In this document: in pieces, positions 1 to 48,733 of the stretch
How the letters are laid out: every line of letters starts with the position of its first letter
Position numbering within the stretch: the first letter of the stretch is position 1
DNA from: a virus
Reading direction: 5' to 3' (one strand)
IMG/VR virus record: IMGVR_UViG_3300021171_000006
Coordinates: 27,354-91,353 of that record
Length of the DNA: 64,000 bases
Translations under genes and position numbers: made by a program
The notes under the pieces: model-generated
Database searches by the model: none
What the model was told of the DNA's origin: nothing
The model's input: the letters and a program-made list of their open reading frames with translations, nothing else

Positions 1-22
1 GGCGCTCAGCGTCGACAAGCCG

Positions 23-319
23 TTGACCGAGGAACAGATCGACAGGTATCTCGCCGAGGTCAAGGCGCAGATAAAGCGCGCTCCTACGATCGTCGCGCCG
101 GGCGATTTCATGTGGTTTGTCGCCGATGACCCGGATGAATTGGCGTGGATGCCGGCGAAGACGGAACACACGACATGGCTCTATATCTTCGGCGTCGTCG
201 AGATGCCGAGATCCAGCGTGGTTGACACCAAATGGGTCAGCGAGCTTTGCCTTGTCTCGAAGACCAAGGAGCCGTTCAGGCCCTGCGATAGACACAACGA
301 CGTATACGCCGGCAGCTGA
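23..319 (+). CDS. hypothetical protein (may start upstream of the window)
   Basis: ORF in the same orientation as the downstream structural genes; no motif recognised. Confidence 0.5.
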   Translation: MTEEQIDRYLAEVKAQIKRAPTIVAPGDFMWFVADDPDELAWMPAKTEHTTWLYIFGVVEMPRSSVVDTKWVSELCLVSKTKEPFRPCDRHNDVYAGS

Positions 320-492: not shown

Positions 493-1188
493 ATGGCGGC
501 CCCAAGTTTGGCGGTTTTTCAAACCGGCGGCGCGGCTGTCACCGGCGACAATTTGAACTCGATGGTGCAGTCATGCGATACGATGAGCGAGCTTCGTGCT
601 CTCGTCGGCGTCGCTGGGATGCAAATCTTTGTTCGGGGGCAGAGCGCTCCAAACGACGGGCTTCAAGGCAACTTCTACTGGAACGTCAACGGCACGGCAC
701 CCGATGACAATGGCGTGACGACGGTTGTCCCCTACGGGGCCGGGTCTGGAGAATGGACGCGGATCATCAACCTTTCCCCAAGGGGAACGTTAGCCACAAC
801 CTACCCCCCTAATCCGTCCGGAACGACCAGCCTCATAGGCGTTATGATGGGGTTGGGGATGACGTTTACGCCCACGAAATCGGGCAATTTCCTGCTCATG
901 GCCACCGCCATTATTTACAATGCGACATCGGTCGATGGCGTTACGGCTGAGTTGCGATATGGCATAGGGACCGCGCCTTCCAATGGAACCCCCCTAGCGG
1001 GCACCAACATATGCGTGGCCGGCGAAAATAATATCCCCGCCGCAACAGCATCGACTCCGGTTGCTCTAATAGCATTCGTGGGTAATTTGACGGTCGGGGT
1101 CACATATTGGCTTGATTTGTCCCTGGCGGCTATTGCGGGGGGGACAGCAAACGCTATCAATGTGACATTGACGGTCGTCGAGTTATGA
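493..1188 (+). CDS. tail/fibre adaptor protein, no signal peptide
   Basis: RGQ..NDG.QG.FYWN...DDNG...W.R motif typical of tailspike N-terminal modules; Thr/Gly-rich beta C-terminus. Confidence 0.6.
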   Translation: MAAPSLAVFQTGGAAVTGDNLNSMVQSCDTMSELRALVGVAGMQIFVRGQSAPNDGLQGNFYWNVNGTAPDDNGVTTVVPYGAGSGEWTRIINLSPRGTLATTYPPNPSGTTSLIGVMMGLGMTFTPTKSGNFLLMATAIIYNATSVDGVTAELRYGIGTAPSNGTPLAGTNICVAGENNIPAATASTPVALIAFVGNLTVGVTYWLDLSLAAIAGGTANAINVTLTVVEL

Positions 1189-1559
1189 TCCGCGCAGTCA
1201 TTATTGGGCTGTTCGTGTTTTTCGCTCTGCCAGCATTGGCGCAGCCGGGAGCCTGTCTTGATCCGTCGCAGTCCTGGTCGTGGAGTTACTCGGTTGGGCC
1301 GATCTCCTCGATCAACTATTATCTCGACAGCCAGGTTCTCGCGGTCGCGTACAATGATGGCGTCGAGCATCTGCTGAACGGCGTGCCGACCAATGTCGCG
1401 CAGCGCTTTCAGATCGGCTACGGGGTATCGCCGGCCTCGATCTGGGCCGGGATGCGATACGGCTATCTGGAGATTCTTCAAAGCCAAGTTCACTGCCCAT
1501 TACGCTCGCAGTCCGGTGAGTTTTTGCTTTCCGCTGCACAACACGACACCCCCCAATGA
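1185..1559 (+). CDS. secreted KTSC-like domain protein
   Basis: signal peptide ending ALA|Q; ISSINYYLDSQVLAVAYNDGVEHLLNGVP matches the KTSC pattern. Confidence 0.55.
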   Translation: MIRAVIIGLFVFFALPALAQPGACLDPSQSWSWSYSVGPISSINYYLDSQVLAVAYNDGVEHLLNGVPTNVAQRFQIGYGVSPASIWAGMRYGYLEILQSQVHCPLRSQSGEFLLSAAQHDTPQ

Positions 1560-1981
1560 AACGCTGGTTCCTCGTTTTCGCTCTGTTGATCCTGGCGCTT
1601 ATCACGCCCAATCGGGCGTGGTCCCAGAGCTCGTTCTACAATTGCGCGATCGTCATCCCGAACCCGCCCGCGACGCAGTTTGCCACGCCGGCCGCCAGCC
1701 CGACGATCTGCAACCTTGACCCGCAGCGCATCGTCTCCGGTGCCGGCGTTGGATTGATCCTCAATTTCTCGCCGGGCGCTGTCGCAACCGTCAGCGTGCA
1801 AGTCACCGGCGACCAGAACCCGGCAGGCGCGACGGCGGCGTGGAACAACCACGACTACATGTTCAACCTCACGAGCTCGATGAACGGCAACATCATCATG
1901 CCGCTGACGGCTGTGCGCCTTTACCTGACGAGGTACACATCGGGCACGATCACGCTCTATCTGGTGGAGGCCGCGAAATGA
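1556..1981 (+). CDS. secreted beta-sandwich protein
   Basis: MKRWFLVFALLILALITPNRAWS|Q signal peptide; AVRLYLTRYTSGTITL C-terminus; ATGA overlaps on both sides. Confidence 0.7.
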   Translation: MKRWFLVFALLILALITPNRAWSQSSFYNCAIVIPNPPATQFATPAASPTICNLDPQRIVSGAGVGLILNFSPGAVATVSVQVTGDQNPAGATAAWNNHDYMFNLTSSMNGNIIMPLTAVRLYLTRYTSGTITLYLVEAAK

Positions 1982-3837
1982 GAACGCTCGGTCGCCTCCT
2001 CCTCGCCGCTACTCTGTGGGTCGGGCTGTCGGCCGGCGCGGTCGCCCAGTACATCTCCACCCCTCCCGGCATAATTCCGGTCACGGCGTTCACCTATTAC
2101 CCCACCAACTTGGCGCTCCAGGTGGCGATTGGCGGCTCCGCCTCAACCGTGTACCGCGGCGGCTTTTTTGCGGCGGGAGACGGTGGTGCCAGTTTCTATC
2201 AATGGTCGACCAGCGCGTGCTCGCTCAATTCGGGTAGCGGCGATAACGGTAGTCAGGTTGCCCCGGCAACGGGGGTCGGTTGCTGGATTGCGGAAAAGCC
2301 GACGGGTCCATGGGATGTGCGCATTTTCGGTGCCGACGCGACGGGCGCCAACGATAGCACCGTCGCGCTCAATGCCTGTTTGGCAGCGGCTGGCCCCGGC
2401 GGAACCTGTCTGGCTAGCGGGGGTACTACGCTGAAAATTCTCGGGGCTGTTTCGCTCCCCGGCCACACGACGCTGAGTTGCGGCAATTCCTATCTGGACG
2501 CCGAGGATAACCCGGCCGCATATGCGTCGACCCCGGCAATCAAAGTAAGCAACTCGCCTGCGATCACGGCCACCGGCGAGGGAGCGGCGGTCGCCAACTG
2601 CCTCATCTACCGCAACGGCATGACGTTTCCGGCGGCGGACAGTTCAGGTTTTGCGGGTACAGGACTATCAGACGCGGGCTACGGAAATTTCACCGTCATC
2701 GGCTCTGTGATCATCGGTTTCGACACGGCCATCGATACGTCGGGGCCTCGGCCCTACATCCAGTACGTCTACGTCGACGGAACTGGGGTCACGCATCCGG
2801 TCATCTACGAGCACAACGGCAACAGTGACGGCGGTGTGTTCGACAATATCAAAATCCAGCCGCTCGCTACGGGCAATTACGGGGGTAGCATAACCTGCGC
2901 TGAGGCAACAAGGCCAGGCACCGGATTCTATATGGGGGGCATCAATTTTATCGGCAAAATCGTCTCACAAAACATGCGGACGGCTGAGTTCGATTTCGAG
3001 TTTTACACCATTGCCGACGGGATATGGGCCGATTTCCCCGTTGCTTGTTTGAGCGCGCCGAGCAGCTATACGCCGACAGGTGTATTGATCGGCAACACGC
3101 AACTAATGGCGAACCACGTTGACATCAATTCGGTCAGCGTCGGGATTATTTCCAAGAACACTGGCGCCGCAAATTGGATCGGCAGTCTGTTCCTCAACAG
3201 CGTCGGGGGGGACTGCGTTCAAATAGGAACCAGCGGCGGCGTGGCGGGCGGCGCGTTTACTATTGGCGATGTGGTGATGAATGCCGGCAACGCGTCTAAT
3301 TGCGGAGGATACGTCGTCAACTATCTGGATTCAACGCATCTGTCTTACCTGACGATTAACAGCGGTCTTTTACACGGGGCCAATAGCGGGAACCCGCCCT
3401 ACATAAACGTGCCCTCTGCCGTGAACGCTTGGCAGATAAACATTTCTCCAAAGGTCGTCACCGATCTCGCGAACCCGGCGGCGATTTATGGGGCGACGAC
3501 GGTGGGGTCATGTACCGGGTTGGGGACTTCGGGTAACGCCTGCGCGCTGATGCCGTCCAGCCTCACCGATCCGTATTCGGGGGTAGTCCTGCTCACGGTA
3601 GGGTCGGGTGGGTCGCCGGGTACGACGGGGGTGGCTGAACTGACGTGGCCGCTGACGATCTCCAACGTCAACGGCTGCACCGCAGGCATACAGGATGCCG
3701 GGAACGCGTGGGCGGTGCCTGCTGGTGTGAAGATCATCAGCATCGACAGCACGCACACTGAGTTGTCGTGGTTCGCCAATTCTGCGCTGACAGCAAGCGG
3801 CACCTACCGCATCGCCTTTACGTGCAGGCCGCAATGA
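1978..3837 (+). CDS. tailspike-like beta-helix protein with signal peptide
   Basis: start chosen at the ATGA overlap; AVA|Q; GGFFAAGDGG module; DVRIFGADATGANDSTVALNA pectate-lyase-3-like entry motif. Confidence 0.75.
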   Translation: MRTLGRLLLAATLWVGLSAGAVAQYISTPPGIIPVTAFTYYPTNLALQVAIGGSASTVYRGGFFAAGDGGASFYQWSTSACSLNSGSGDNGSQVAPATGVGCWIAEKPTGPWDVRIFGADATGANDSTVALNACLAAAGPGGTCLASGGTTLKILGAVSLPGHTTLSCGNSYLDAEDNPAAYASTPAIKVSNSPAITATGEGAAVANCLIYRNGMTFPAADSSGFAGTGLSDAGYGNFTVIGSVIIGFDTAIDTSGPRPYIQYVYVDGTGVTHPVIYEHNGNSDGGVFDNIKIQPLATGNYGGSITCAEATRPGTGFYMGGINFIGKIVSQNMRTAEFDFEFYTIADGIWADFPVACLSAPSSYTPTGVLIGNTQLMANHVDINSVSVGIISKNTGAANWIGSLFLNSVGGDCVQIGTSGGVAGGAFTIGDVVMNAGNASNCGGYVVNYLDSTHLSYLTINSGLLHGANSGNPPYINVPSAVNAWQINISPKVVTDLANPAAIYGATTVGSCTGLGTSGNACALMPSSLTDPYSGVVLLTVGSGGSPGTTGVAELTWPLTISNVNGCTAGIQDAGNAWAVPAGVKIISIDSTHTELSWFANSALTASGTYRIAFTCRPQ

Positions 3838-5531
3838 TCGCAAGGATCTTCCTCCTTGCCCTTATGCTGATCGCGCCCGCCGCATGGGCGCAGACGATTG
3901 GCGGCGCACCACCGCTGCAGCAACCGGTGCAAGCGAGCGACCAAATATTCATCTTCCGTGGTTCGGCACCGGTCTATTCGACGACGGTGGGGACGCTGCT
4001 GTCCGGTCTGACGACGGGCGTCTACGGGCCGGTGTCGAGCTCGAATGGCTACGTGCCGACTTGGAACGGTGTGGCGGGTAACAAGCTGAACGCAGGCCTT
4101 CCGGTTGGACAGACCGGCAATTCGACGATCGTCGAGACAGGCGTTTCGGGGCTGATCTCGTCGTCAATCCTGCCGATCATAGGTGGGGCAAATGGTGGAA
4201 CCGGAGTCAACAACGGCAGTTATACCGAGACTTTTGGGGGCAACCTCGTTACCGGCGGGGCACTGACGACGACCGGGCTCGGCCCTGTGACGCTCGCCTT
4301 CCCTAGCATCCCGGTAACCTTCACCTTCCCGAGCACATCGAAGACGCTCTTGGCGAGCGATGCCAGCAACGTGTCGCTGCCCACTGCGCTCAACAACCTC
4401 GGCCTCGGATCGGGCAATACTCCTATTTTTGCGGGTGTGACGCTCGGTACGGCACCGAGTAGCCTCGGGGCAATCCTGAGCAGTGAGTGGGCCGGTCCTA
4501 ACTGGACCAGTTATACCGGCAATCAGGACATGATGCGAATCATGGTCAACAATTATCCGCTGTCCGACGAGTACCTGGGCGGTACGGTTCCGCTCGTGAG
4601 TGGCCTCGTCGTTGGGATGGTCGTTCCAAGCGGCGCGATCGGAGGGGCGACCGTCGGGGATCAGGTGCTCATCGCCTACGGCAAAACCCTGTCATCGACC
4701 AAAGGTGTTGCTGCTACTACCGGGTTCTCCTTCATGGGAGCTGCAGGATCACAGGCGTGGGGTCTTGTAGGCAATGTCATCAACTGCCAGGACTTCCCCT
4801 GTACCGGTGGGGGGTTTGGCGGCGGCGGCGTCCTGTATAGCGCCGAGCTGGACATGAACGTGGTCCCCAAGACCGGCAGCGTCGCTCCGGACCTCACCGC
4901 GATCGGGCTCCATATCGTCAACAATAGCCTGACGGACGTGGCTGGCGGGTATTTGGAGGCCGCAATCAACATTTCTGCGACGCAGCAGCCGTGGGATGTC
5001 GGCATAAGTTTCTCGGACGGCGCGAGCAGGACTGCCGCGATGAACCTCGGCCGCGCAGCGACTGGCGTGAGTCAGCCCTCGCAGGTGCTTGCGTTCAACG
5101 CAGAGAACAGCGGCGGCTCCAATCTAACGGATACTCTCTTTGAGACAGCGTTCGGTACGCTACAGCTCAACCTGCCTACGACATCTTCATTTTTCCAGGT
5201 CGTCGGCGGTGCGATTGCGGTCGCGCAGCCCGCTAATGGTAGTACGACGGGCGCTCTTTACCTAAGCCGGGCTACAGACAGCGGGCCGACGGGGAATTTG
5301 ATCGAGGCGGTCAACGCTGCGCAAAACTCCACGCTGTTTAATATCGACGTTAACGGGGTGGCAAATTATTCGGCGGCGGTCGCCCGGTCTGGTGCGCCGA
5401 CTGTAGCGGCTGGGCAGATAGGATATGGCAGTACGGTAGCCGCCGCAAGCAACTGTGGATCTTTAGCCAGTTCGGTGGGGTGTATCATCGTGAATATCGC
5501 CGGTTCAGTGCACTATTTTCCTTATTACTAA
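3834..5531 (+). CDS. tail fibre-like protein with signal peptide
   Basis: AWA|Q; GGANGGTG and ALNNLGLG fibre motifs; C-terminal IIVNIAGSVHYFPYY. Confidence 0.7.
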   Translation: MIARIFLLALMLIAPAAWAQTIGGAPPLQQPVQASDQIFIFRGSAPVYSTTVGTLLSGLTTGVYGPVSSSNGYVPTWNGVAGNKLNAGLPVGQTGNSTIVETGVSGLISSSILPIIGGANGGTGVNNGSYTETFGGNLVTGGALTTTGLGPVTLAFPSIPVTFTFPSTSKTLLASDASNVSLPTALNNLGLGSGNTPIFAGVTLGTAPSSLGAILSSEWAGPNWTSYTGNQDMMRIMVNNYPLSDEYLGGTVPLVSGLVVGMVVPSGAIGGATVGDQVLIAYGKTLSSTKGVAATTGFSFMGAAGSQAWGLVGNVINCQDFPCTGGGFGGGGVLYSAELDMNVVPKTGSVAPDLTAIGLHIVNNSLTDVAGGYLEAAINISATQQPWDVGISFSDGASRTAAMNLGRAATGVSQPSQVLAFNAENSGGSNLTDTLFETAFGTLQLNLPTTSSFFQVVGGAIAVAQPANGSTTGALYLSRATDSGPTGNLIEAVNAAQNSTLFNIDVNGVANYSAAVARSGAPTVAAGQIGYGSTVAAASNCGSLASSVGCIIVNIAGSVHYFPYY

Positions 5532-5547
5532 AGGGACAAGATTGGGA

Positions 5548-6036
5548 ATGAAACTCTTCACCGGCATTCTGATCTCCGCCGCGCTGCTAGTTTCGATGCC
5601 GTGCTTTGCTCAAGAGTTATCTCAGGTTCGGCCGGAGAGACTTGCTGGGGCGCCTCCGCCGCCCGCCCCGGCACCGCCGCCGCCACCATCCACAAAGCCC
5701 CCCGTGACGAAAGAGCCAACAGCGACGAGTGCGGCACAAGCGTCGGAGCCACCGGCACCGATCAATCCGTGCGCTCGCGGGCCGTCGCGGATAAAGCTTG
5801 GCGGGGTCGATCTTGACGCTCTGAAATGCCTAAACATCGTTCTGGCCCAGCAGCGCGACGCCCAGGTGCAGCAGGTCAGCAACAAGGAAGCGATTGTGTC
5901 CGTGGAGCTCCTGTTGGCGAGGGACGATCTAGAGAAGGCCTCGGCTCAATTAAAAGACGTAAGCGCGCGGGAGGGGTGGTGGCAGCACTGTATCACTGAC
6001 CCGGCATGTGTGACATGGGCCAACCAGGGGCACTGA
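5548..6036 (+). CDS. secreted Pro-rich/coiled-coil protein, possible fibre chaperone
   Basis: CFA|Q signal peptide; Pro linker; coiled coil; position between two fibre genes. Confidence 0.6.
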   Translation: MKLFTGILISAALLVSMPCFAQELSQVRPERLAGAPPPPAPAPPPPPSTKPPVTKEPTATSAAQASEPPAPINPCARGPSRIKLGGVDLDALKCLNIVLAQQRDAQVQQVSNKEAIVSVELLLARDDLEKASAQLKDVSAREGWWQHCITDPACVTWANQGH

Positions 6037-6049
6037 GAGGATCGTGAAA

Positions 6050-8641
6050 ATGAAGCGTTTAGCAATAGCGCTTCTCGCGCTGTTTTTATTCGGCCACGCG
6101 GCGCTCGCGCAGCTTACCAATTATGCTAACACGACGCTATCGAATGCTGCGCTGCCCAACGCGCGCGCCAACCTTGGCTTCCTCAACTACGTCTCCGTCA
6201 CGGACCCGGCCTATGGGGCGAAGTGCGACGGGGCGACGGACGACTCGGCGGCGATCCAGACGGCGGCGAATGCCGTCCCGGCAGGCGGCATCTTGCTGCT
6301 CCCCGCCGGGAAGCAATGCAATTACGGCACGACACTGACCCTCGCCCTCGGGATCAATATCAAGAGCGACGGCCCGCAATCGTCGGGGCAACTCTTCTGG
6401 ACCGGCGACGCGACCTCCGATCATATCGTCATCGCGAGTGGCATCGGTCCGTTCCAGGCGGCGGATGTCCGCATGGTCGCGACGGCGGGGGCGACCTACT
6501 CCGTCAACGACACGATCACGCTGAACGATGGTTGTGGCACTCATGCCATTGTGAAGGTTGCCAGAGTGTCGGGTACAGGCGTCGCCGATGCCCGGATCAC
6601 CACGGTTGGTTCTTGCACGAGCCAGCCATCCCCGACGACCGCAATTACGCAATTGTCGTCATCCGGCTCCGGCACCGGGGCGACGTTCAAGGTCTTCTAC
6701 GGTTCGCAGACGACGAAAGTCTATGAGCCGGAATTTCATAACGTCATCCTCGGCAGCACGACGACGATGACCTCGGGCTGCGTGATCCGCGCCGATTACG
6801 CCGGGTATCTCGTCTTCGACAACTCGCGGATTTACGGAGCCAGAAAGACGTGGCGCGGCATCTGCATGTCGCGGGTCATCACCGCGCACATCGGGCACAA
6901 TTCCTTGATCGACAACCTGCTTGGCGAATCCATCGTCATGTCAGGGACGGATACGGCTGGAAATCAGTCATCCGACGTCATGCTCGACCATTTGGAGTTG
7001 CAGGGGTGCAATCTTGCCATCGCGTCGAAGGCCGCCGCGCTACTGACCGGGTGTATCCTGCACGGGGATAATACGGACGGGATCTTTGTCACGCATACGG
7101 AGGTATACGGGTCATTCCTGGGGTACGCTGTCTACTTTGGCGCTGTGAACGGAGCGGCAAGCACACATTCGCTGTACTTCTTCAACGACTTCAATGTCGA
7201 GGCGGCGGGAACGTGGTCGGGCTCAATCAGCGGGACGAACTATAATAACATCTACCTCTCGGGCGGCTCCTGGATCGGGGCGAACAACATCGACGCCATC
7301 CACTTTCCCGCTGGAGCGACGCAACTCCAGATCGACCCGAGCGTCCTCATCTACTCGAACACGACCGATGCGTCGTCGCCAAACGGCATCTATGTGAACG
7401 GGACGGATGTCAGCATCGCCGGGACGATCATCGGAAACTATAACGGGGGCGGTGTGCTGGGCGCGGGCGTCTATCTCGACAGCTCGTCCAGCTACGTCTT
7501 CATCGGATCGACGGCCTCGATCCGCCAGTTCGCAGCCGGAGTGCAGGGCAATAGCGCGGTCGGCGTCTACACGCTCGATGCGGTCATGCAGAGCAATACG
7601 GCGGATCTGTCTGGCATTACCTGCACCGCTTTCGCCCGCCCGCTCACGAACGCGATCTCGTCGAGCGTGACCTCGCTCTGCCCGAACTGGTCCACGACCG
7701 GGACGCTCGCGGCCGGCGGGGCGGTCTCGCTCGGGTCCACGACGAACTTCCTCGGTGGTGCGACGGGAGTCACGATCACCGGGGCCAATTCCGGCGTCAC
7801 CTTTGCCACCGTAAATCAATATCTGGCGAGCAACATCTACTATAACGGCGGCTGGAAATATGCCGCCAACGGCACGGGTCTTGTGTTCGCCTTGTCAACC
7901 ACCTCGACGAATGCGATGGACATCTACACGGCGGCGAACAACGCGGGCGGAGCGGGTGCCGCCGCGTCGCTGACGACAGCGGCTCATGTCATCGCGAGCA
8001 GCAACGAGTGGGATTTCCCTGGCATCGTGACTGCTGGCGGTACGATCACGGGGACCAACCTCATTCCATCGGGGTCGGCGGCTCCGACCGTGGGCATGGG
8101 GCTGCCGGCGGCAGGTAAGCTCGGCCTCTACGGCACGACGAGCGAGTTGTTTTCCGGTGCGACGGACATCTGGGACTATGGCGTGACGACAGCGAGCGTG
8201 CTGACCCTGCCGGTGGCGACGACGCTTTCGAGCGCAAACGTGCTGCTGACGGGCATCACAACCGGGACGAATGCCGATTTCCTGTGCCGAGCCGCCACCG
8301 GGGCGGTCCTTTTGCAGACCTCAGCCTGCACGATTTCGTCGATGCGGTTCAAGAACCTGATGGGAAACTATCTCGACGATCCGCTCAAGGCTATCGGGGG
8401 ATTGCACCCCATCGTCTTCACACGCAAGCGTGACGTGGAACACCCCGATCCTGATTGGAATGCATATCAGCCGCAGATTGGTCTCTCCGCCGAGAATGTA
8501 GCGGCAATCGAGCCCAAATGTGCGATCTATGAGCAGGATGGGAAGACGCCAAAATCCTATCGGCAGGAATGCCTAATCGCAGTTTTAGTTTCTGCCGTGC
8601 AAAGACAGCAGGCAGAAATCGCCGAACTCAAACATCATTAA
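6050..8641 (+). CDS. tailspike/fibre with signal peptide and C-terminal peptidase S74 intramolecular chaperone
   Basis: ALA|Q; ARANLG; VSVTDPAYGAKCDGATDDSAAIQ beta-helix entry; SSMRFKN...GLSAENV...LVSAVQRQQAEIAELK S74 pattern. Confidence 0.8.
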   Translation: MKRLAIALLALFLFGHAALAQLTNYANTTLSNAALPNARANLGFLNYVSVTDPAYGAKCDGATDDSAAIQTAANAVPAGGILLLPAGKQCNYGTTLTLALGINIKSDGPQSSGQLFWTGDATSDHIVIASGIGPFQAADVRMVATAGATYSVNDTITLNDGCGTHAIVKVARVSGTGVADARITTVGSCTSQPSPTTAITQLSSSGSGTGATFKVFYGSQTTKVYEPEFHNVILGSTTTMTSGCVIRADYAGYLVFDNSRIYGARKTWRGICMSRVITAHIGHNSLIDNLLGESIVMSGTDTAGNQSSDVMLDHLELQGCNLAIASKAAALLTGCILHGDNTDGIFVTHTEVYGSFLGYAVYFGAVNGAASTHSLYFFNDFNVEAAGTWSGSISGTNYNNIYLSGGSWIGANNIDAIHFPAGATQLQIDPSVLIYSNTTDASSPNGIYVNGTDVSIAGTIIGNYNGGGVLGAGVYLDSSSSYVFIGSTASIRQFAAGVQGNSAVGVYTLDAVMQSNTADLSGITCTAFARPLTNAISSSVTSLCPNWSTTGTLAAGGAVSLGSTTNFLGGATGVTITGANSGVTFATVNQYLASNIYYNGGWKYAANGTGLVFALSTTSTNAMDIYTAANNAGGAGAAASLTTAAHVIASSNEWDFPGIVTAGGTITGTNLIPSGSAAPTVGMGLPAAGKLGLYGTTSELFSGATDIWDYGVTTASVLTLPVATTLSSANVLLTGITTGTNADFLCRAATGAVLLQTSACTISSMRFKNLMGNYLDDPLKAIGGLHPIVFTRKRDVEHPDPDWNAYQPQIGLSAENVAAIEPKCAIYEQDGKTPKSYRQECLIAVLVSAVQRQQAEIAELKHH

Positions 8642-8644
8642 CGA

Positions 8645-8770
8645 ATGGTCTCGCTAGTCGCCACGCTCGTCCTACCCTTCGCGGCGGCGGCCTGCTGCTC
8701 CCCGTTTGCCGTGCCTGTCGCGGCAGCTTTGGCTCTCGTGCTGGCGCAGTATCAGCGAATGGCGATGTAG
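8645..8770 (+). CDS. small hydrophobic peptide (41 aa)
   Basis: manual translation MVSLVATLVLPFAAAACCSPFAVPVAAALALVLAQYQRMAM; fills the gap between neighbours. Confidence 0.4.
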   Translation: MVSLVATLVLPFAAAACCSPFAVPVAAALALVLAQYQRMAM

Positions 8771-8771
8771 C

Positions 8772-9308
8772 ATGGACCCTACCGTTGAGATAGCCATCAT
8801 CGGCTCGCTGAGCGTCACGGCGGCAGCATTGTCTCCGATCGTCCAAGCTCGTATAGCGAACAGGCAGCGGCAGAGGGAGCGCGACGAGGATAGAGCCGAC
8901 CGCAAAGAAGTGGCGGCCAAGGTGGACGCGGCGGCAGATCAAGCACGGGAAGCCGCCCGCCTCCTGTCCGATGCACAGCAGGTTACGATATCGAAAACCG
9001 ATGAGGTTGCGACGGAAGCCAAGGCGGCGACGGCCGAAACCCGAAGCCAGTTGAAACAGATCCATACTCTTGTCAACAGCGACATGACCGCTGCCCGGCA
9101 GGGTGAGTTGGATCAGGTGAGGCTAAACCTTACCACGCTTCGTAAGGTGGTATTGCTTGGCGCGGAGATGGGGCGTCCGCCGGCCGATGAAGATAGCGTG
9201 GCCATCGAGACCGCCGAAGCCAGGATCAAAGAATTGGAAGGGATTTTGGCTGATCGGCTATCGCAGATGCGGGTTATTGAGGCTGAGGCCGACGTTGGCA
9301 AATCGTGA
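8772..9308 (+). CDS. N-anchored membrane coiled-coil protein
   Basis: N-terminal TM segment followed by coiled coil; lies upstream of the endolysin. Confidence 0.6.
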   Translation: MDPTVEIAIIGSLSVTAAALSPIVQARIANRQRQRERDEDRADRKEVAAKVDAAADQAREAARLLSDAQQVTISKTDEVATEAKAATAETRSQLKQIHTLVNSDMTAARQGELDQVRLNLTTLRKVVLLGAEMGRPPADEDSVAIETAEARIKELEGILADRLSQMRVIEAEADVGKS

Positions 9309-9446
9309 AAGCATCGTGATTTTCACGGAATTTTCACACAAAATCAACGACCTTGTGTTAGTAACAATGTGAGAGTCTGAGGACGGCCGATGTTCGACGG
9401 CGTTGTGATAGGGTGCGAACCGATGCGATCTGATGGGTCTCAGGAT

Positions 9447-9827
9447 ATGACCGACCCGCGCACCGTCATCGCACAGTCGGAACGTCTCGCCGTTGTGGAG
9501 ACGAAAGTGGAGGGGCTGAAGGAAGATACGGGGGTTATCAGGTCTAATATTCATGTCGTCAATAACGTATTACAGCAAATTATTTCGATGGAGCAGAGGT
9601 GCGAAACCAAACTCAGCGAGTTAATAGCATTGACGAAAGACCTTCCGACCATAGCGAGAACTGCCAATTCGTTTTCGGAAATGAAGGATGAGATTGAGGC
9701 GATGATCGACGAGCGCCAGCAGCGTCAGGGGGCGTGGAGGGCCATTGTACGGATGGGGGCCGCCCTTGTTGGTGCCGCATCAATCGGAGCCTGTGCCGCG
9801 GCGTGGTATTACGGACACTTCCATTGA
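9447..9827 (+). CDS. coiled-coil protein with C-terminal TM (XhlA/holin-accessory-like)
   Basis: ERLAVVETKVEGL...QRQGAWR plus TM segment. Confidence 0.6.
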   Translation: MTDPRTVIAQSERLAVVETKVEGLKEDTGVIRSNIHVVNNVLQQIISMEQRCETKLSELIALTKDLPTIARTANSFSEMKDEIEAMIDERQQRQGAWRAIVRMGAALVGAASIGACAAAWYYGHFH

Positions 9828-10120
9828 GCGATCCGAAGGGCGAGCCCTACGTTGTCCGCCAGCCTGTCGCCCCCGCATGGAAGCGTTTTCATCGGCGTGG
9901 CGATTTCTGGCGCAACCCCATCATCGTAGCCGTGGTCGCAGGCCTGCTGATTAACGTGGTTTGGGCGGCGGGGGTCTACGCTTGGCAGCGCGGCATCGAA
10001 ACCACCAGGGAATATTGGAGGAGTTACGGTGCCGGGCTCGCCGCCGAGGGGCACTACACCAACAGCCCCGATAAGCTGCGCGAGATCATCGCCCGCGTCC
10101 AGGAGGCTAGGCCAAAGTGA
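9824..10120 (+). CDS. membrane protein
   Basis: single TM segment; TTGA overlap with upstream stop. Confidence 0.5.
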   Translation: MSDPKGEPYVVRQPVAPAWKRFHRRGDFWRNPIIVAVVAGLLINVVWAAGVYAWQRGIETTREYWRSYGAGLAAEGHYTNSPDKLREIIARVQEARPK

Positions 10121-10351
10121 ACTCGCACAACTTCCCCGAGGGCGCTGCGTCGCCTGCGGAACCCTTCGCACGCAGTTCGAGCACGCGCCGGACAAGAGCC
10201 CGTGCCCGTATGCTAAACCGCCGAGCGGGTTGCGACCCGAGCCAGCCGAGCATCGGTACGCTGTGAATGACCAAGCGACGATCGCCGCGCGACTGATCGA
10301 ACTGCGGGCAGAGCAAGAGGCGTCTTGGAACACGATTGAAGGGGAGACAGG

Positions 10352-10795
10352 ATGACGCGCTCAATTAACTCGGACGGTCTCGAAATCATCAAATCGGGCG
10401 AAGGGTTGCGCCTCACGGCCTATCTCGACCCGGCGGGCATCTGGACGATTGGCTACGGGCATACCCCCGCTCACCAGGGGCAGGTAGTCACGCAAGACCA
10501 GGCGGACGCGCTGCTCATCTCGGATATTGCTTGGGCTTCCGCAGCGATCGACAGCGCAACCCATGATGTAAGCACGACAGACAACCAATTTTCTGCTATG
10601 GTAAGCCTTGCGTTCAACATTGGTGCCGGTGCGTTCAAGGGATCTACGGTTTTGCGGCTTCATCGGGCGATGAAATATCAGGGTGCTGCAGATGCCTTCC
10701 TCCGCTGGGACAAGGCCCACGTCGATGGGGTGCTTGTGACCCTCGCTGGCCTAGCGAAGCGCCGGGAGCAAGAACGGGAGTTGTATCTGAAATGA
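10352..10795 (+). CDS. endolysin, GH24 phage lysozyme
   Basis: EGLRLTAYLDPAGIWTIGYGHT catalytic motif; FSAMVSLAFNIG; GLAKRREQE. Confidence 0.95.
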   Translation: MTRSINSDGLEIIKSGEGLRLTAYLDPAGIWTIGYGHTPAHQGQVVTQDQADALLISDIAWASAAIDSATHDVSTTDNQFSAMVSLAFNIGAGAFKGSTVLRLHRAMKYQGAADAFLRWDKAHVDGVLVTLAGLAKRREQERELYLK

Positions 10796-11064
10796 GTGAT
10801 GCAGAACAGCACGAACCCGATGGGATGGCGGCCTACGCTTTGGCCATCAAAAACTCTAGCCGAGACGATCCGAATTGGCCCTTACCATCCTTTGATGCGA
10901 AGGATTGGGCCGAAGCGTTTTGCAAGACGGCGGCAAAGTTGGGGCATCCCGGCATCGACGAGGAGTGGATGATCGGGTGGTTCGCCAATGCTCTGATGCG
11001 CGGCTACGATGAGGCGAACATGCGAACGTCAAGGGCCGCATCGGAGGCTAAGCGCGCGCTATGA
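10792..11064 (+). CDS. hypothetical protein
   Basis: ATGA overlaps; FDAKDWAEAF...MIGWFANALMRG. Confidence 0.6.
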   Translation: MSDAEQHEPDGMAAYALAIKNSSRDDPNWPLPSFDAKDWAEAFCKTAAKLGHPGIDEEWMIGWFANALMRGYDEANMRTSRAASEAKRAL

Positions 11065-11459
11065 ACCCCTCCCAACAACAGATCAACAGCGCCGTCCGCA
11101 CGCTCCTCGCCACATTGGGCGGCTTGGTCGCCGGATGGGCAATCGCCAAGGGGTACATTACTCAATCCGAGGCGGACTCGATCCTCTCCAATCAGCAGGT
11201 TATGGATTCGGTAACGACCGTCGTTCTCACGCTGCTAGGTTCAGCCGGAGCGGCTGGCGTCGGCATCTGGGGCCTCGTCGCCCACAAGCAGGCGAACGTT
11301 GTCGCAACTGTCGCCGCGATGCCCGAGGTGAACAAGGTCGAGATGGTGTCTACCGCAGCGGGGCTCAATCTCGCGGCAGCGGTCCCTTCGGCGCCGGGGT
11401 CGGTCGTGACGGTAGCCCCGCCATCAGCGATGCCGCCCCTGGGCAGCGTGGTAGCATAG
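11061..11459 (+). CDS. putative holin
   Basis: two TM segments, VRTLLATLGG..AKGYI; next to the endolysin. Confidence 0.65.
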   Translation: MNPSQQQINSAVRTLLATLGGLVAGWAIAKGYITQSEADSILSNQQVMDSVTTVVLTLLGSAGAAGVGIWGLVAHKQANVVATVAAMPEVNKVEMVSTAAGLNLAAAVPSAPGSVVTVAPPSAMPPLGSVVA

Positions 11460-11470
11460 GAGAACCCCGT

Positions 11471-11638
11471 ATGGGTCAATTCCTCTTGGTGCTTGCTGAC
11501 GTCCTTCTACTGGTCGCGTCTTTCATCTATCGGCCAAATCCTACGCCGCTCCACCCCCTCTTCCCCCACCTGGGATGGTTCGGGCTGTTCCTCTATGTGC
11601 TGGTCGCAGCCCTCGGAGCCTTCGGCATCGGTCGATGA
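11471..11638 (+). CDS. small two-TM membrane protein
   Basis: AGGAG RBS; hydrophobic sequence; HLGWFGL. Confidence 0.65.
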   Translation: MGQFLLVLADVLLLVASFIYRPNPTPLHPLFPHLGWFGLFLYVLVAALGAFGIGR

Positions 11639-11775
11639 ACCCGCTCATTCTGATCCTGCTCGTCCTCCTCCTTGTGGGAGGCTTCGGCGGCGGCACCTAC
11701 TACGGCGGCATGCACGTCGGCGGCGGGATCGGGCTCGTGCTGCTGGTCGTGATTATCATTTTGCTGTTTCGCTGA
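11635..11775 (+). CDS. DUF3309-like small membrane protein
   Basis: LILILLVLLLVGG...YYGG...GGGIGLVLLVVIIILL. Confidence 0.75.
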   Translation: MNPLILILLVLLLVGGFGGGTYYGGMHVGGGIGLVLLVVIIILLFR

Positions 11776-11877: not shown

Positions 11878-12375
11878 ATGACCCAAATCTCTCGCCGTGC
11901 GCTGCTGAGTTCGACAGCAATGATCCCGGTGGCGATCGCCGTAGATGGCTGCGCCGGCCTTACCTCCCTCCCGCAGTTCGCGACCGATGTCGAGAACATC
12001 GCCGGCATGCTCAGCAACGCCGCGCCGACACTCGGGACGCTGGCCGGGATCGGATCGGCCACGATTGCGAAGGTGCAGGGGCTTATCGCCACGGCGAAGA
12101 CCGTTGCCGCCTCGGTCACGGCAGCGGCAGCGGCGGGCGGCTCCGGCATCGGAGCGCTCGTCTCGGATTTCGCTGGCGTCTTCGGCTCGATCACGGCGGC
12201 TCTGGGAGTGAACGTTCCGGGCCTGTGGGGGACGGTCATCTCTGCCGGCGTGTCGCTGCTGCCGAGCATTCTGGGCGCAGCCGGCATTCCCCTGGCTGCC
12301 GGTCCCGGTGCTCCCGCCCCCACGATGCCCGTAGCGCAGGCGCGGGCGATCGCTGCGGCGCTGGCGGGTAAATGA
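11878..12375 (+). CDS. putative Tat-exported lipoprotein
   Basis: SRRALL twin-arginine motif, then AVDG|C. Confidence 0.65.
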   Translation: MTQISRRALLSSTAMIPVAIAVDGCAGLTSLPQFATDVENIAGMLSNAAPTLGTLAGIGSATIAKVQGLIATAKTVAASVTAAAAAGGSGIGALVSDFAGVFGSITAALGVNVPGLWGTVISAGVSLLPSILGAAGIPLAAGPGAPAPTMPVAQARAIAAALAGK

Positions 12376-13442: not shown

Positions 13443-13835
13443 GCTTCCCAAGAGCAACTGTCCCAACTCACGGCCACCAACGCGAGCGTGAACGCTGTGC
13501 CCTACGTTGCGGATAATCCGGCATTCGGCGAGTTGCCAGATACGTGGAAGGTCCGCCCCGATGGAAAGGGGTTTTTATGTCGGGACTACGCCATCGCCAA
13601 AGCGACTGAGTTGGTCGACCAGGGGTGGCCGAAAGCTGATCTCTCGGTCGTGCTCTGCTACGACGAGTTGGGGGATTATCACGCTGTCTTGGCTGCCGAG
13701 GCTGGCGGAGAGACATGGATCCTCGACAACCGCTACCCGAAGCCGTATCGCTGGGACGAGCCCCCGTACCCGTACAAATGGGCGCTGCGCCAAGTTGCGG
13801 GAACGGACGAGTTCCGGGATATATCGCAGGCATGA
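13437..13835 (+). CDS. transglutaminase-like cysteine peptidase (BTLCP / peptidase C93) catalytic domain
   Basis: NASVN..., CRDYAIAK, HAVL, ILDN give a Cys-His-Asp triad. Confidence 0.85.
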   Translation: MPASQEQLSQLTATNASVNAVPYVADNPAFGELPDTWKVRPDGKGFLCRDYAIAKATELVDQGWPKADLSVVLCYDELGDYHAVLAAEAGGETWILDNRYPKPYRWDEPPYPYKWALRQVAGTDEFRDISQA

Positions 13836-14515
13836 AGCGTCCCCTCGCCATCTTCCTCCTCGCTGCGCTCGCCGGCTGTGGCAGCGGCGGCGGCCCTCCA
13901 CCTCCCCCTCCGCCCGTCGTCACCATCCCGGATCTCTCCGTGTACCTGGTGGGAGACGGCGCCTTCTCGGACGGCCAGGATCAGGTCGAGTACAGCTTTT
14001 CGGACCCTCGCGGTTTCTGGGTCACGGCATGGACCTACCCGACCCATCCGGCAGATAACGGGGGCGAGGTCTACGTGAGCGACGGCACGACCGTCTCGAT
14101 TTGCTGCACCCAGGACGGCAGTCAGCCGGGCATCCAGCGCTTCGCCGAGTGGGGCTTGTTCAACAAATACACGATCCCTTGCTCGCAAGGCTGGACGCAG
14201 GTGGATTCCCTCGGGCGCGCGTGCGAGGCTACCGTGACATATCCGGGCGGCCTCGTCGCCGACTCGATCATCAGCGAGCACTACAGCCAGCCTACTCAAG
14301 GCGGCGATATGGAGCGGTTCTACTTCGCCAGGGGGCGTAAAACCTGGGAGGCGTATAACTTCGCCGCACCGCGTGATGGAATGCCGCTTGTTGGGCCGAC
14401 TGGTGGGCCGCCGGTCGATGCCGGTGTCAGGCCGTTGTCGGATCGCCGGGTGCTCACTATTCCGGTCGCCGGGACTCCGGGAACGGACTGGCCGCCGACG
14501 GGATTCGTGCCGTGA
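13832..14515 (+). CDS. lipoprotein
   Basis: MKRPLAIFLLAALAG|C followed by a poly-Pro linker. Confidence 0.7.
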   Translation: MKRPLAIFLLAALAGCGSGGGPPPPPPPVVTIPDLSVYLVGDGAFSDGQDQVEYSFSDPRGFWVTAWTYPTHPADNGGEVYVSDGTTVSICCTQDGSQPGIQRFAEWGLFNKYTIPCSQGWTQVDSLGRACEATVTYPGGLVADSIISEHYSQPTQGGDMERFYFARGRKTWEAYNFAAPRDGMPLVGPTGGPPVDAGVRPLSDRRVLTIPVAGTPGTDWPPTGFVP

Positions 14516-47473: not shown

Positions 47474-48733
47474 ATGACCGTCCGCATCGAGAAGTTGCCA
47501 AGCGGTCTCAGGATCGTTACCGATTCGTTCGATAGCCCGCTCGCCGTCCTCCAGGTCTCGGTTGAGGTCGGCACCCGGTGGGAGCCGCCGCACCTCAATG
47601 GTCTGGCACATTTCCTTGAACACATGGCGTTCAAGGGCACCCTCCGGCGCACGGCAAGCGATATCAGCGAAGCGATTGAGAACCGGGGCGGCTGGATCAA
47701 TGCCGGAACCGGGAAGGACATCACCAACTATTATACCGGCGTCCTGGCGGAAGACGCGCCCGTAGCACTCGACGTGCTTGCGGACATCGTGTGCAACTCC
47801 ACGCTACCGGAGGAGGAATTCGAGCGCGAGCGCGGTGTGATCTTGCAGGAGATCGCCGACCTTGAAGACGAGCCAATGAGTTGGCTCGCTGATCGCATGA
47901 TGGAAATTACGTTCATCGGTGGCCTGGGAATGCCGGGGCTCGGCTCTCCCGAAACGCTGAGAAGGATTGAGGTCAGCGATCTTGCCAACCTAGTGGCGGC
48001 TCATTACGAGCCGGGCACGATCATCGTTTCGGCTGCAGGCGGGGTCGACCATGACGCTATCACGCGGGCTGCCGAGCAATTGTTCGACCTCGGCCACCGC
48101 GAGGTTTCCAAACGGCACGAAAGCCGCAAGTCCGAATTCTTCGGTGGGAACAGTTTTCGTCAGGCCCGCAAAACCGATCAGGTGCAGATCATTGTTGCCT
48201 TTCCGTCGTTCTCGCTCGGCGACCCCGATCTCTATGCCGATTGCGTCCTGCAAAAAATCATCGGGGGATGTAGCACAAGCCGTCTGTGGCGGGCGCTGCG
48301 GGAAGATCGCGGGCTCTGCTATGATGTCTATTCCTCAGCCCAGGCATGGCGCGAGGCCGGCATTGTCGGCGTAAAATTGTCAACTGGAGCCGACTCGGCG
48401 GCTGAGGCGATCTCCGCGCTCGTCACCGAATTGCAAAAGGTACGGGATGCCGGCCTCACCGACGAGGAGTTGGCGCGCGGTAAAAAGCTGATGCGCGCCG
48501 AAATCGTCATGGAGAATGAATCGGCGGCGTCCCGTGTTGGCGCTGTCGCGCACCATCTGGCAATCCATGATCGCGCTTACGATCTGAATGAGGAGTTGGA
48601 CCGGTTCGCCGCAGTCGATCATCGCGCCATCGGTCGGTGTATCGAGCGGATGTGGTCAACGCCGGCGGCTGTCGCGATCCGCGGCCCGAAGCGCATCGTC
48701 GAAACTGACATTCAGGAAATGCTGCGTGCCTGA
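47474..48733 (+). CDS. M16 family (pitrilysin/MPP-like) zinc peptidase
   Basis: GLAHFLEHMAFKGT; INAGT; EFERERGVILQE; SRLW..LREDRGLCY. Confidence 0.95.
   Translation: MTVRIEKLPSGLRIVTDSFDSPLAVLQVSVEVGTRWEPPHLNGLAHFLEHMAFKGTLRRTASDISEAIENRGGWINAGTGKDITNYYTGVLAEDAPVALDVLADIVCNSTLPEEEFERERGVILQEIADLEDEPMSWLADRMMEITFIGGLGMPGLGSPETLRRIEVSDLANLVAAHYEPGTIIVSAAGGVDHDAITRAAEQLFDLGHREVSKRHESRKSEFFGGNSFRQARKTDQVQIIVAFPSFSLGDPDLYADCVLQKIIGGCSTSRLWRALREDRGLCYDVYSSAQAWREAGIVGVKLSTGADSAAEAISALVTELQKVRDAGLTDEELARGKKLMRAEIVMENESAASRVGAVAHHLAIHDRAYDLNEELDRFAAVDHRAIGRCIERMWSTPAAVAIRGPKRIVETDIQEMLRA

What the first reader, a model, noticed from the sequence alone, without database searches (positions are those of the whole stretch)
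1185..8641. Six consecutive tail-region proteins, including two tailspikes, appear to be Sec-exported and disulfide-bonded
Seen: six adjacent genes start with a basic n-region, a hydrophobic core and a cleavage motif followed by Gln: 1185 ALA|Q, 1556 AWS|Q, 1978 AVA|Q, 3834 AWA|Q, 5548 CFA|Q, 6050 ALA|Q. Their predicted mature chains have 2, 2, 14, 4, 4 and 14 Cys (hand count), always even and mostly in local pairs (CLAAAGPGGTC, CTGLGTSGNAC, CQDFPC, CGSLASSVGC, plus a pair inside the S74 domain). They also carry fibre hallmarks: beta-helix entry motif, ARANLG, S74 chaperone. The preceding gene (493) shares the GG-FYW module but has no signal peptide. Established: tailed-phage fibres normally fold and attach in the reducing cytoplasm, and disulfides form in the periplasm via DsbA. 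Inference: the receptor-binding apparatus is exported, folded oxidatively and docked on the particle at or after lysis. Alternatively these are secreted adhesins or depolymerases acting on the host surface. The +1 Gln could be cyclised to pyroglutamate.
Basis: partly seen in the sequence, partly recalled or inferred. Interest (0 to 1): 0.92.

Follow-up and report, generated by a model that had tools for sequence, protein, structure and literature searches.

The report
Phage tail fibres carrying export signals
In this complete ~91-kb phage genome, ten of twelve neighbouring late genes in the slot where tail fibres are normally encoded, including two tailspike-like enzymes, begin with ordinary bacterial secretion signals. 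They are therefore probably made outside the cytoplasm where the virus particle is built, but it is unknown whether they then join the particle or act on the host surface.

Summary
All six genes start with a Sec-type signal peptide ending in a small-x-small site followed by Gln. Mature Cys counts are 2, 2, 14, 4, 4 and 14.

The block is larger than reported. Four more signal-bearing genes lie just upstream, one of them a paralogue of gene 2. That makes 10 of 12 consecutive genes, all with even Cys counts.

Homologues keep the signal even where the N-terminal sequence has diverged. In the gene-3 family (1330 representatives), about half of the usable members carry one, and 57 of 87 of those have Gln at +1. 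An alphaproteobacterial control gave 3 of 29.

Gene 3 models confidently as a beta-helix, closest to phage tailspikes.

Three claims weaken:
- The S74 match is below Pfam's cut-off.
- The module said to be shared with gene 493 is not detectable.
- On a tree, the cysteine pairs do not track gain or loss of the signal.

Export is likely (~0.8). Docking on the virion at lysis is one of two live readings (~0.35). The other is free exported enzymes or adhesins (~0.3).

This scan has met the same pattern before on other DNA (449 findings in at least 426 genomes). GenBank already notes a 'possible signal peptide' on the possible tail fibre gp49 of cultured Burkholderia phage Bcep781, so the question is testable.

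The parts
1..319 (+). u4. This is the 3' part of a 166-aa gene that starts 181 bases before the window (genome 27172-27672). It has an N-terminal hydrophobic segment that looks more like a membrane anchor than a cleaved signal, and 2 Cys.
493..1188 (+). g0, 231 aa, no signal peptide, 2 Cys. It is tail-fibre-like only by language-model and structure look-alikes (a DUF2793/Phage_tail_beta cluster at 0.92). It is a candidate cytoplasmic anchor or small fibre.
1185..1559 (+). g1, 124 aa, signal peptide cleaved ALA|Q, 2 mature Cys, no known family.
1556..1981 (+). g2, 141 aa, signal peptide cleaved AWS|Q, 2 mature Cys, small beta-sandwich. It is a paralogue of u1, which lies upstream of the window (42% identity, E 3e-27). 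Its nearest structural clusters are ~110-aa viral proteins that align to residues 27-141 only.
1978..3837 (+). g3, 619 aa, signal peptide cleaved AVA|Q, 14 mature Cys. It has a variable N-terminal module at residues 24-110, a right-handed beta-helix at about 112-500, and a C-terminal beta-sandwich. It is tailspike-like.
3834..5531 (+). g4, 565 aa, signal peptide cleaved AWA|Q, 4 mature Cys in two local pairs. It is a Gly/Ser/Thr-rich fibre. Its first ~100 mature residues are conserved with a homologue that has a different C-terminal part, so it is mosaic.
5548..6036 (+). g5, 162 aa, signal peptide cleaved CFA|Q, 4 mature Cys. It has a Pro-rich linker followed by a helical C-terminal part, and lies between the two large genes. 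It could be an assembly helper, but that is inference only.
6050..8641 (+). g6, 863 aa, signal peptide cleaved ALA|Q, 14 mature Cys. Only about 25 residues, including ARANLG, come before a pectate-lyase-like start. The C-terminal region is S74-like and carries a Cys pair.
8706..11775 (+). Lysis region directly downstream. It holds membrane and coiled-coil proteins, a soluble GH24 endolysin at 10352-10795, and small membrane proteins. This is the event that would merge cytoplasm and periplasm.

Best explanation
The six genes belong to a block of about 10.8 kb (genome 25203-35994). In it, 10 of 12 co-oriented, often translationally coupled late genes encode proteins with Sec-type signal peptides.

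Step 1: the precursors are exported through SecYEG and cut by signal peptidase I, mostly leaving an N-terminal Gln that can cyclise. This is inferred from sequence and I put it at about 0.8.

Step 2: they fold and trimerise in the periplasm, where their even-numbered cysteines can be oxidised. This is inference, about 0.6.

Step 3, my preferred reading: they are the phage's branched receptor-binding set, made of two beta-helix spikes, one fibre and small beta-sandwich accessories. They attach to DNA-filled particles that carry a signal-less anchor when holin, endolysin and spanin merge the compartments at lysis. This is inference with no direct evidence, about 0.35.

The stated confidence is for the whole chain.
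For: Signals:
- They are canonical and clustered, against a 9% background in a bacterial control.
- They are kept in homologues despite divergent N-terminal sequence. These are the 69% homologue of g6, most g3 homologues, and both g4 homologues.
- Gln at +1 occurs in 8 of 9 sites in the block and 57 of 87 in the family, against 3 of 29 in the control.

Genome position:
- The block sits between the giant ejection protein with its tRNA array and the lysis genes. This is where podovirus-like genomes place fibres.
- The genome has no signal-less paralogue of g3, g4 or g6.

Architecture:
- g3 is structurally a tailspike.
- g4 is mosaic, with a conserved N-terminal part.
- The same N-terminal modules occur directly after the signal in some family members and at the very start of signal-less members.
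- A short signal-less fibre gene precedes signal-bearing spikes in Shewanella phage vB_Sb_QDWS and in IMG/VR loci L021 and L022. In the Shewanella phage and L022 these follow baseplate genes.
- Bdellovibrio MAT fibres show that a signal peptide and an S74 domain occur together on cell-exported fibres.
Against: - I found no tailed phage in print that attaches exported parts.
- No anchor or docking partner was identified, and g0 shows no detectable homology to g3.
- Signal-less relatives keep the conserved cysteine pairs. On a tree, signal status changes at least 17 times without the pairs following: about 2 pairs go the same way, 0.3 the opposite way and 7.8 do not change, out of 10 independent pairs.
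- Bcep781, the Shewanella phage and L022 each also have signal-less fibre genes, so the signal-bearing proteins could be accessory.
- g6 has almost no N-terminal domain before the beta-helix.
- A weakly glycosyltransferase-like gene sits inside the block, which hints at envelope chemistry.
- No trained signal-peptide predictor and no experiment were available.
Confidence: 0.35

Rival explanations
1. The proteins are exported but never become part of the virion. They act as free periplasmic or released proteins: polysaccharide depolymerases, lectin-like binders and a fibre-like adhesin. They would work on the infected cell's capsule, EPS or O-antigen, or on neighbouring cells after the burst. 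Possible roles are receptor destruction, blocking superinfection, or freeing progeny from the matrix. The real receptor-binding protein would be a signal-less protein such as g0 or the 943-aa Ig-repeat protein.
For: - Cellular precedents exist. Pantoea WceF is a Tat-exported, tailspike-like stewartan glycanase, and it appears among the fold matches.
- Matrishin et al. 2023 read signal-bearing phage genes as envelope modifiers.
- In the family, the signal peptide is gained or lost often.
- A glycosyltransferase-like gene lies in the block and recurs beside signal-bearing small proteins in another 93-kb phage contig.
- An O-acyltransferase gene lies next to the Shewanella phage homologue.
- Bcep781, L022 and the Shewanella phage have separate signal-less fibres.
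Against: - About 3,000 codons of a late, translationally coupled operon would be spent on non-virion proteins.
- These proteins have fibre-type N-terminal modules, mosaicism and an S74-like chaperone.
- Lysis releases cytoplasmic enzymes anyway, so a signal is not needed for release.
- No signal-less copy of either beta-helix exists in the genome to arm the virion.
Confidence: 0.3
2. The hydrophobic N-termini do not direct productive export during infection. They might be uncleaved membrane tethers that hold fibres at the inner membrane until lysis. They might be propeptides removed by another protease. They might be bypassed by internal starts that yield cytoplasmic isoforms, which then assemble in the ordinary way.
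For: - u4's hydrophobic segment is long and lacks a clean cleavage site.
- Matrishin et al. suggest that some phage capsid 'signal peptides' are removed by the prohead protease.
- Signal-less family members keep the same cysteines.
- No trained predictor was run.
Against: - The hydrophobic cores are 12-16 residues long, each followed by a -3/-1 small-residue site. That is the length of a signal peptide, not of a transmembrane segment.
- Gln at +1 is conserved far above background, which implies that this exact cut matters.
- The signals are confined to fibre-like proteins and are absent from head and ejection proteins.
Confidence: 0.12
3. The finding is an artefact of gene calling or chance. 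On this view the true starts lie downstream of the hydrophobic stretches.
For: Two ORFs can be extended to upstream GTG starts at 1840 and 3768. My gene calls are crude.
Against: - ATGA stop-start overlaps fix four of the starts.
- Homologues from independent assemblies begin with the same kind of signal.
- The g2/u1 paralogue alignment runs into the signal region.
- The chance estimate is about 5e-7.
Confidence: 0.02

Closest known systems
Burkholderia phage Bcep781 gp49 (also Bcep43 gp48 and Bcep1 gp51), a cultured virulent myophage
   Same: It is annotated 'possible tail fiber; possible signal peptide domain' in GenBank. Its N-terminus is a Sec-type signal cut before Gln, and it has 14 mature Cys. 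It shares the Cys-pair module that precedes the beta-helix in g3, matched through the Shewanella phage homologue at 47-48% identity.
   Different: It is one gene in a myophage tail operon, and signal-less 'possible tail fibers' (gp31, gp65) sit elsewhere in that genome. Here a whole block of ten genes carries signals in a podovirus-like genome. The depositors' note was never followed up in any paper I could read, and the 2006 genome paper is not held.
Bdellovibrio bacteriovorus MAT fibres (Caulton et al. 2024, PMC10769870)
   Same: These are phage-tail-fibre-like trimeric fibres made with a signal peptide. Thirteen of the 21 carry a self-cleaving S74 chaperone, and their tips are mosaic. They show that Sec export and fibre folding are compatible.
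   Different: They are cellular proteins of a predator and are displayed on its own surface. They share a ~130-aa N-terminal domain that I did not test for here. They are not encoded by a virus and have no virion to join.
Pantoea stewartii WceF (PDB 6tgf; PMC7949094)
   Same: It is an exported, trimeric, tailspike-like beta-helix glycanase. It is a structural match of the g3 model with E 1.2e-4.
   Different: It has a Tat signal and is exported already folded. It is encoded in a bacterial EPS gene cluster and is not notably Cys-rich. The signals here have no twin-arginine motif.
Classical beta-helix tailspikes (Dettilon gp208 6f7k, Klebsiella K2-2 TSP 8iqe, Sf6 2vbk/4urr)
   Same: These are the best fold matches of g3, with Foldseek E values of 1e-8 to 1e-5. 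They also share the same genome slot and the same modular evolution.
   Different: From my own knowledge, these proteins are made, folded and attached in the cytoplasm, have no signal peptide, and carry an N-terminal particle-binding domain or adaptor peptide.
Signal-peptide genes of Porphyromonas phages obeying the Bacteroidetes Q-rule (Matrishin et al. 2023, PMC10367356)
   Same: These are phage genes with signal peptidase I sites that expose an N-terminal Gln.
   Different: Those genes are of unknown function and are read as envelope modifiers. No tail parts are named. The Q-rule is described as specific to Bacteroidetes, whereas this phage's host-like gene is nearest to Alphaproteobacteria.

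Membership tests
Sec-type (signal peptidase I) signal peptide | Positively charged n-region, an uncharged hydrophobic core of about 7-16 residues, and small residues at -3 and -1 | tested here: met
   All six genes, plus u1, u2 and u3, meet this by my own heuristic.
Sec-type (signal peptidase I) signal peptide | Positive call by a trained predictor (SignalP, DeepTMHMM) | not testable with these tools
Sec-type (signal peptidase I) signal peptide | Experimental cleavage and extracytoplasmic location | not testable with these tools
   This needs mass spectrometry or reporter fusions.
Tat signal peptide | Twin-arginine motif (S/T-R-R-x-F-L-K) in the n-region | tested here: not met
   None of the six has RR. 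An unrelated ORF at 11878-12375 does.
Beta-helix tailspike / depolymerase | Right-handed parallel beta-helix fold | tested here: met
   The g3 AlphaFold2 model has pLDDT 87.7, and its top Foldseek matches are phage tailspikes. g6 has only a sub-threshold PF12708 match and was not modelled.
Beta-helix tailspike / depolymerase | N-terminal particle-binding or adaptor domain, and presence in the virion | tested here: inconclusive
   The N-terminal modules are also found at the start of signal-less relatives, but none matches a known head- or tail-binding family. Presence in the virion cannot be tested here.
Peptidase_S74 intramolecular chaperone (PF13884) | Score at or above Pfam's gathering threshold | tested here: not met
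   g6 scores 12.8 bits against a cut-off of 22, with E 0.15. The match covers profile positions 1-55 of 58.
Peptidase_S74 intramolecular chaperone (PF13884) | Ser...Lys catalytic motif at the C-terminal end of a fibre, and homology to confirmed members | tested here: met
   An S-x-x-R-x-K motif is present. tblastn of g6 residues 553-861 hits fibres (24-28% identity) that score 42-55 bits on PF13884.
Bdellovibrio MAT fibre family | Signal peptide followed by the conserved ~130-aa beta-rich N-terminal domain | not tested
   The signal is present. No MAT sequence was compared. The resemblance is one of architecture only.
Bacteroidetes Q-rule substrates | Gln at +1 of the signal peptidase I site | tested here: met
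   8 of 9 sites in the block and 57 of 87 in the family, against 3 of 29 in the control.
Bacteroidetes Q-rule substrates | Host belongs to Bacteroidetes | tested here: not met
   The phage's M16 peptidase gene is nearest to Alphaproteobacteria at 38-42% identity. This is indirect evidence.

The most novel reading that the evidence does not exclude
A tailed phage finishes its particle outside the cytoplasm. The whole receptor-binding set (spikes, fibre and accessories) is exported by Sec, trimmed to an N-terminal Gln or pGlu, and folded with disulfides in the periplasm. It is then captured by a signal-less anchor on DNA-filled particles in the short interval when the holin has opened the inner membrane.
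Probability: 0.3. Interest if true: 0.9.

Novelty: new variant of a known kind. Interest (0 to 1): 0.64.

Why it matters
Textbook assembly of tailed phages is entirely cytoplasmic. If receptor-binding proteins are routinely exported in some lineages, several things follow:
- Assembly would gain a post-lysis or at-lysis step.
- Sec, DsbA and signal peptidase would become host factors for infectivity.
- Signal peptides on 'hypothetical' late proteins would need re-annotation. At least one cultured phage has such an ORF truncated by its annotators.
- Engineering or expressing such spikes as depolymerases would need periplasmic expression.

If instead the proteins are free secreted enzymes, they would be a large and unrecognised class of phage-encoded envelope or matrix modifiers.

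Either way, cultured carriers make the question directly testable. These are Bcep781, Bcep43, Bcep1 and Shewanella phage vB_Sb_QDWS.

Tried and rejected
- **Complex prediction.** I modelled g0 (3 copies) with g4 residues 20-120 (3 copies). The tool gave no verdict, so this is not evidence either way.
- **g0 structure.** AlphaFold2 on the single g0 sequence gave pLDDT 44, too poor for a fold search.
- **g0 versus g3.** BLASTP found no shared module.
- **The look-up of encoding contigs.** The 35.8-kb Logan contig that carries the closest homologues of g3 and g6 could therefore not be read.
- **Related loci, genome contigs.** A scan with the g3 family found no relative.
- **Related loci, viral contigs.** Scans with g3, P0012, g0 and g2 found nothing. 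The g2/u1 alignment found one locus.
- **PDB sequence searches.** g4, g6 and the g3 family gave nothing significant.
- **Promoter and terminator scans.** Counts across the block were at chance level, so there is no sign of an independent moron cassette.
- **Signal versus cysteine pairs.** The raw association looked strong: 59 of 73 signal-bearing members have at least one conserved pair, against 21 of 56 signal-less members. It vanished under independent-pairs control on a tree, so I do not use it as evidence for oxidative folding.
- **Literature.** Three searches found no description of exported tail fibres in tailed phages. Two candidate papers were irrelevant.
- **Summer et al. 2006 (Bcep781).** The paper is not held. 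A paper on a related Ralstonia phage has no proteomics.
- **M16 peptidase.** I considered it as a signal-peptide-degrading helper. It has no signal peptide and no link to the block, so I dropped the idea.
- **Cys-Cys distances.** These could not be measured because the structure tool returns no coordinates.

Full report
**Setting**

The window is bases 27354-91353 of a 91,353-bp IMG/VR virus record. The two ends of the record overlap by about 142 bases with three mismatches, so the genome is in effect closed. GC content is about 60%.

- The major capsid gene starts at window 63158 and wraps to the start of the record. It resembles the capsid genes of Mx8-like and other podovirus-type phages.
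- The portal is at 55816-57684 on the minus strand.
- After the capsid gene come Ig-rich structural proteins and a 2408-aa DarB-like giant protein.
- Next is an array of 25 tRNA genes found by ARAGORN, then an HNH endonuclease.
- Then comes the block studied here, followed by membrane proteins and a soluble GH24 endolysin.

This is the T7-like order (my own knowledge), so the block sits where tail fibres are expected. An M16 peptidase gene elsewhere in the window is nearest to Alphaproteobacteria at 38-42% identity, which suggests a diderm alphaproteobacterial host.

**Checking the observation**

The six ORFs, their N-termini and their cleavage motifs are as described.

- Four starts overlap the preceding stop codon as ATGA.
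- My simple von Heijne-type score puts the six among the best nine of 128 ORFs.
- Head, ejection and replication proteins score nothing comparable.
- The same score flags 9% of ORFs in 400 kb of an alphaproteobacterial genome. That is a believable rate, and it makes six in a row very unlikely by chance.
- Mature Cys counts are 2, 2, 14, 4, 4 and 14.

**The block is larger than the finding**

Just upstream of the window I found further genes:

| Gene | Genome position | Notes |
|---|---|---|
| u1 | 25203-25640 | Signal cut before Gln. Paralogue of g2 at 42% identity, E 3e-27 |
| u2 | 25645-25926 | Signal cut before Gln |
| GT-like gene | 25910-26650 | Cytoplasmic. phrog_1574; Pfam GT2 only at E 0.003 |
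| u3 | 26647-27168 | Has a signal. Start overlaps the previous stop as ATGA |
| u4 | 27172-27672 | Has an N-terminal hydrophobic anchor |

So 10 of 12 consecutive genes have hydrophobic, signal-like N-termini. All ten have an even number of mature cysteines. Outside the block, counts are even in 40 ORFs, odd in 49 and zero in 27.

**What the proteins are**

- **g3.** Its N-terminal part matches a PHROG tail-fibre family. With a 50-sequence alignment, AlphaFold2 gives a confident model (pLDDT 87.7). The model has a signal helix, a poorly defined module at residues 22-110, a beta-helix, and a C-terminal beta-sandwich. Foldseek ranks phage tailspikes first (Dettilon gp208, K2-2 TSP, Sf6). Lower down it lists Pantoea WceF, a bacterial exported tailspike-like glycanase.
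- **g6.** It has a sub-threshold pectate-lyase-like start. Its C-terminal region is below Pfam's S74 cut-off, but it covers the whole profile, keeps a Ser...Lys motif, and aligns with fibres that are confirmed S74 members.
- **g4.** It is a Gly/Ser/Thr-rich fibre. Its first ~100 mature residues are 73% identical to a homologue whose remainder is unrelated.
- **g2.** It is a small beta-sandwich. Its nearest structural clusters are ~110-aa viral proteins that align only with its mature part.
- **g0.** It has no signal. Only language-model and structure look-alikes suggest it is tail-fibre-like.

**Conservation of the signal**

- The only homologue of g6 (69% identity) has a quite different N-terminal sequence, but it is again a signal cut before Gln.
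- Nearly all first-round homologues of g3 begin with a signal and have 12-15 Cys.
- A profile search found 1330 representatives with E of 1e-3 or better.
- Of 145 usable members, 87 score as signal-bearing, and 57 of those have Gln at +1. The bacterial control gave 3 of 29.
- The Gln is therefore a property of this class of proteins and not of the presumed host's secretome. The Bacteroidetes Q-rule does not explain it.

**Cysteines**

Seven Cys are invariant in a nine-sequence alignment of g3 homologues. The raw association between the signal and the conserved pairs is strong. However, the signal status changes at least 17 times on a tree of 111 members. In about 8 of 10 independent contrasts the pairs stay put. 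Signal-less members with classic fibre N-termini keep the pairs. The cysteines are therefore compatible with periplasmic oxidation, but they do not prove it.

**The same pattern elsewhere**

- Distant relatives of g6 on IMG/VR contigs include signal-bearing spikes. In L006, L011, L016 and L022 the spike sits at or near the end of a run of co-oriented structural genes, and L022 has four signal-bearing genes together.
- Shewanella phage vB_Sb_QDWS has a 687-aa ORF with a signal cut before Gln. Its annotated CDS is truncated, and the homology to g3 lies upstream of the annotated start.
- Burkholderia phage Bcep781 gp49 is annotated in GenBank as 'possible tail fiber; possible signal peptide domain'. 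It has a signal cut before Gln and 14 mature Cys.
- In the Shewanella phage, L021 and L022, homologous short signal-less fibre genes precede the signal-bearing spikes.
- A second contig of about 93 kb (L128) pairs a similar GT-like gene with signal-bearing small proteins, one of them g2-like.
- Earlier notes of this scan report the same pattern: 449 findings in at least 426 genomes. Later checks of some follow-ups priced the virion-docking reading at 9-30%.
- I checked two papers cited in those notes. Matrishin 2023 describes Q-rule signal peptides on Porphyromonas phage genes but names no tail parts. Caulton 2024 describes Bdellovibrio fibres that combine a signal peptide with an S74 domain.

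**Interpretation**

Export and cleavage are the simplest reading of canonical, conserved, clustered signals with a selected +1 residue (about 0.8). The destination is open.

For virion docking (about 0.35):
- The block occupies the fibre slot.
- The genome has no signal-less copy of the spikes.
- The architecture is fibre-type and mosaic.
- The N-terminal modules are shared with signal-less fibres.
- A short signal-less fibre recurs upstream of signal-bearing spikes.
- From established knowledge, tailspikes and fibres can be added to finished particles in vitro.

For free exported enzymes or adhesins (about 0.3):
- I found no description of a tailed phage attaching exported parts.
- WceF is a cellular precedent for an exported tailspike-like enzyme.
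- The GT-like and O-acyltransferase neighbours hint at envelope chemistry.
- Other carriers have separate signal-less fibres.
- g6 has only a very short N-terminus before the beta-helix.

A non-export role for the hydrophobic N-termini gets about 0.12. An artefact gets about 0.02.

**Novelty**

The pattern is not new to this scan, and annotators of Bcep781 flagged it. I found no paper that describes or explains it. I class it as a new variant of a known kind. Its value lies in the size of the block here (ten genes), the Gln-at-+1 rule, and the pointer to cultured phages in which virion mass spectrometry would decide the matter.

Noticed in passing
genome 25203-27672, i.e. 2150 bases before the window up to window 319: Four further signal-bearing genes (u1-u4) and a weakly glycosyltransferase-like gene extend the exported block upstream of the finding. 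u1 is a paralogue of the gene at 1556.
   Followed up: yes
L025:5494-7557 (Shewanella phage vB_Sb_QDWS, OK094664.1 14007-16067, minus strand): The deposited CDS vBSbQDWS_23 starts at an internal Met. The full 687-aa ORF has a signal peptide cut before Gln and a fibre-like shaft. A probably spurious opposite-strand CDS (vBSbQDWS_24) overlaps its 5' part. An identical 47,902-bp record is deposited as Hujiaoplasma phage zrk29-1.
   Followed up: partly
record ends: genome 1-142 and 91212-91353 (window 63859-64000): The ends overlap by about 142 bases with three mismatches, inside the capsid gene. The 'linear, 59% complete' record is probably a closed genome assembled from two strain variants.
   Followed up: partly
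genome 20208-22901 (L002:1208-3901): An array of 25 tRNA genes by ARAGORN lies inside the virion module. An earlier first-reader note counted 33.
   Followed up: partly
window 11878-12375 (+): A 165-aa ORF has a twin-arginine-like motif followed by a lipobox-like Cys, so it may be a Tat-exported lipoprotein. It lies just after the lysis genes.
   Followed up: no
window 47474-48733 (+): A full-length M16 (insulinase-type) peptidase without a signal peptide, nearest to alphaproteobacterial genes at 38-42% identity. This is an unusual auxiliary gene for a phage.
   Followed up: partly
window 13832-14515 (+) and 41120-41425 (-): Two ORFs have lipoprotein-type signals (a lipobox ending in Cys). The first is followed by a poly-Pro stretch.
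   Followed up: no
L128:5734-6490 (IMG/VR contig of 93,069 bases): A g2-like domain is in one frame and a signal peptide lies just upstream in another frame. This is either a frameshift or an assembly error. It sits in a cluster of signal-bearing small proteins beside a GT-like gene, the terminase and the portal.
   Followed up: partly
window 1636-1848 (-): An antisense ORF inside the gene at 1556 has a higher third-position GC (0.85) than the sense frame, and it misled my GC3-based gene caller. The sense gene is supported by its paralogue.
   Followed up: partly
window 62158-63141 (+) and genome 22913-23485 (+): Two HNH endonuclease genes are inserted in the structural region, one directly before the capsid gene.
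   Followed up: no
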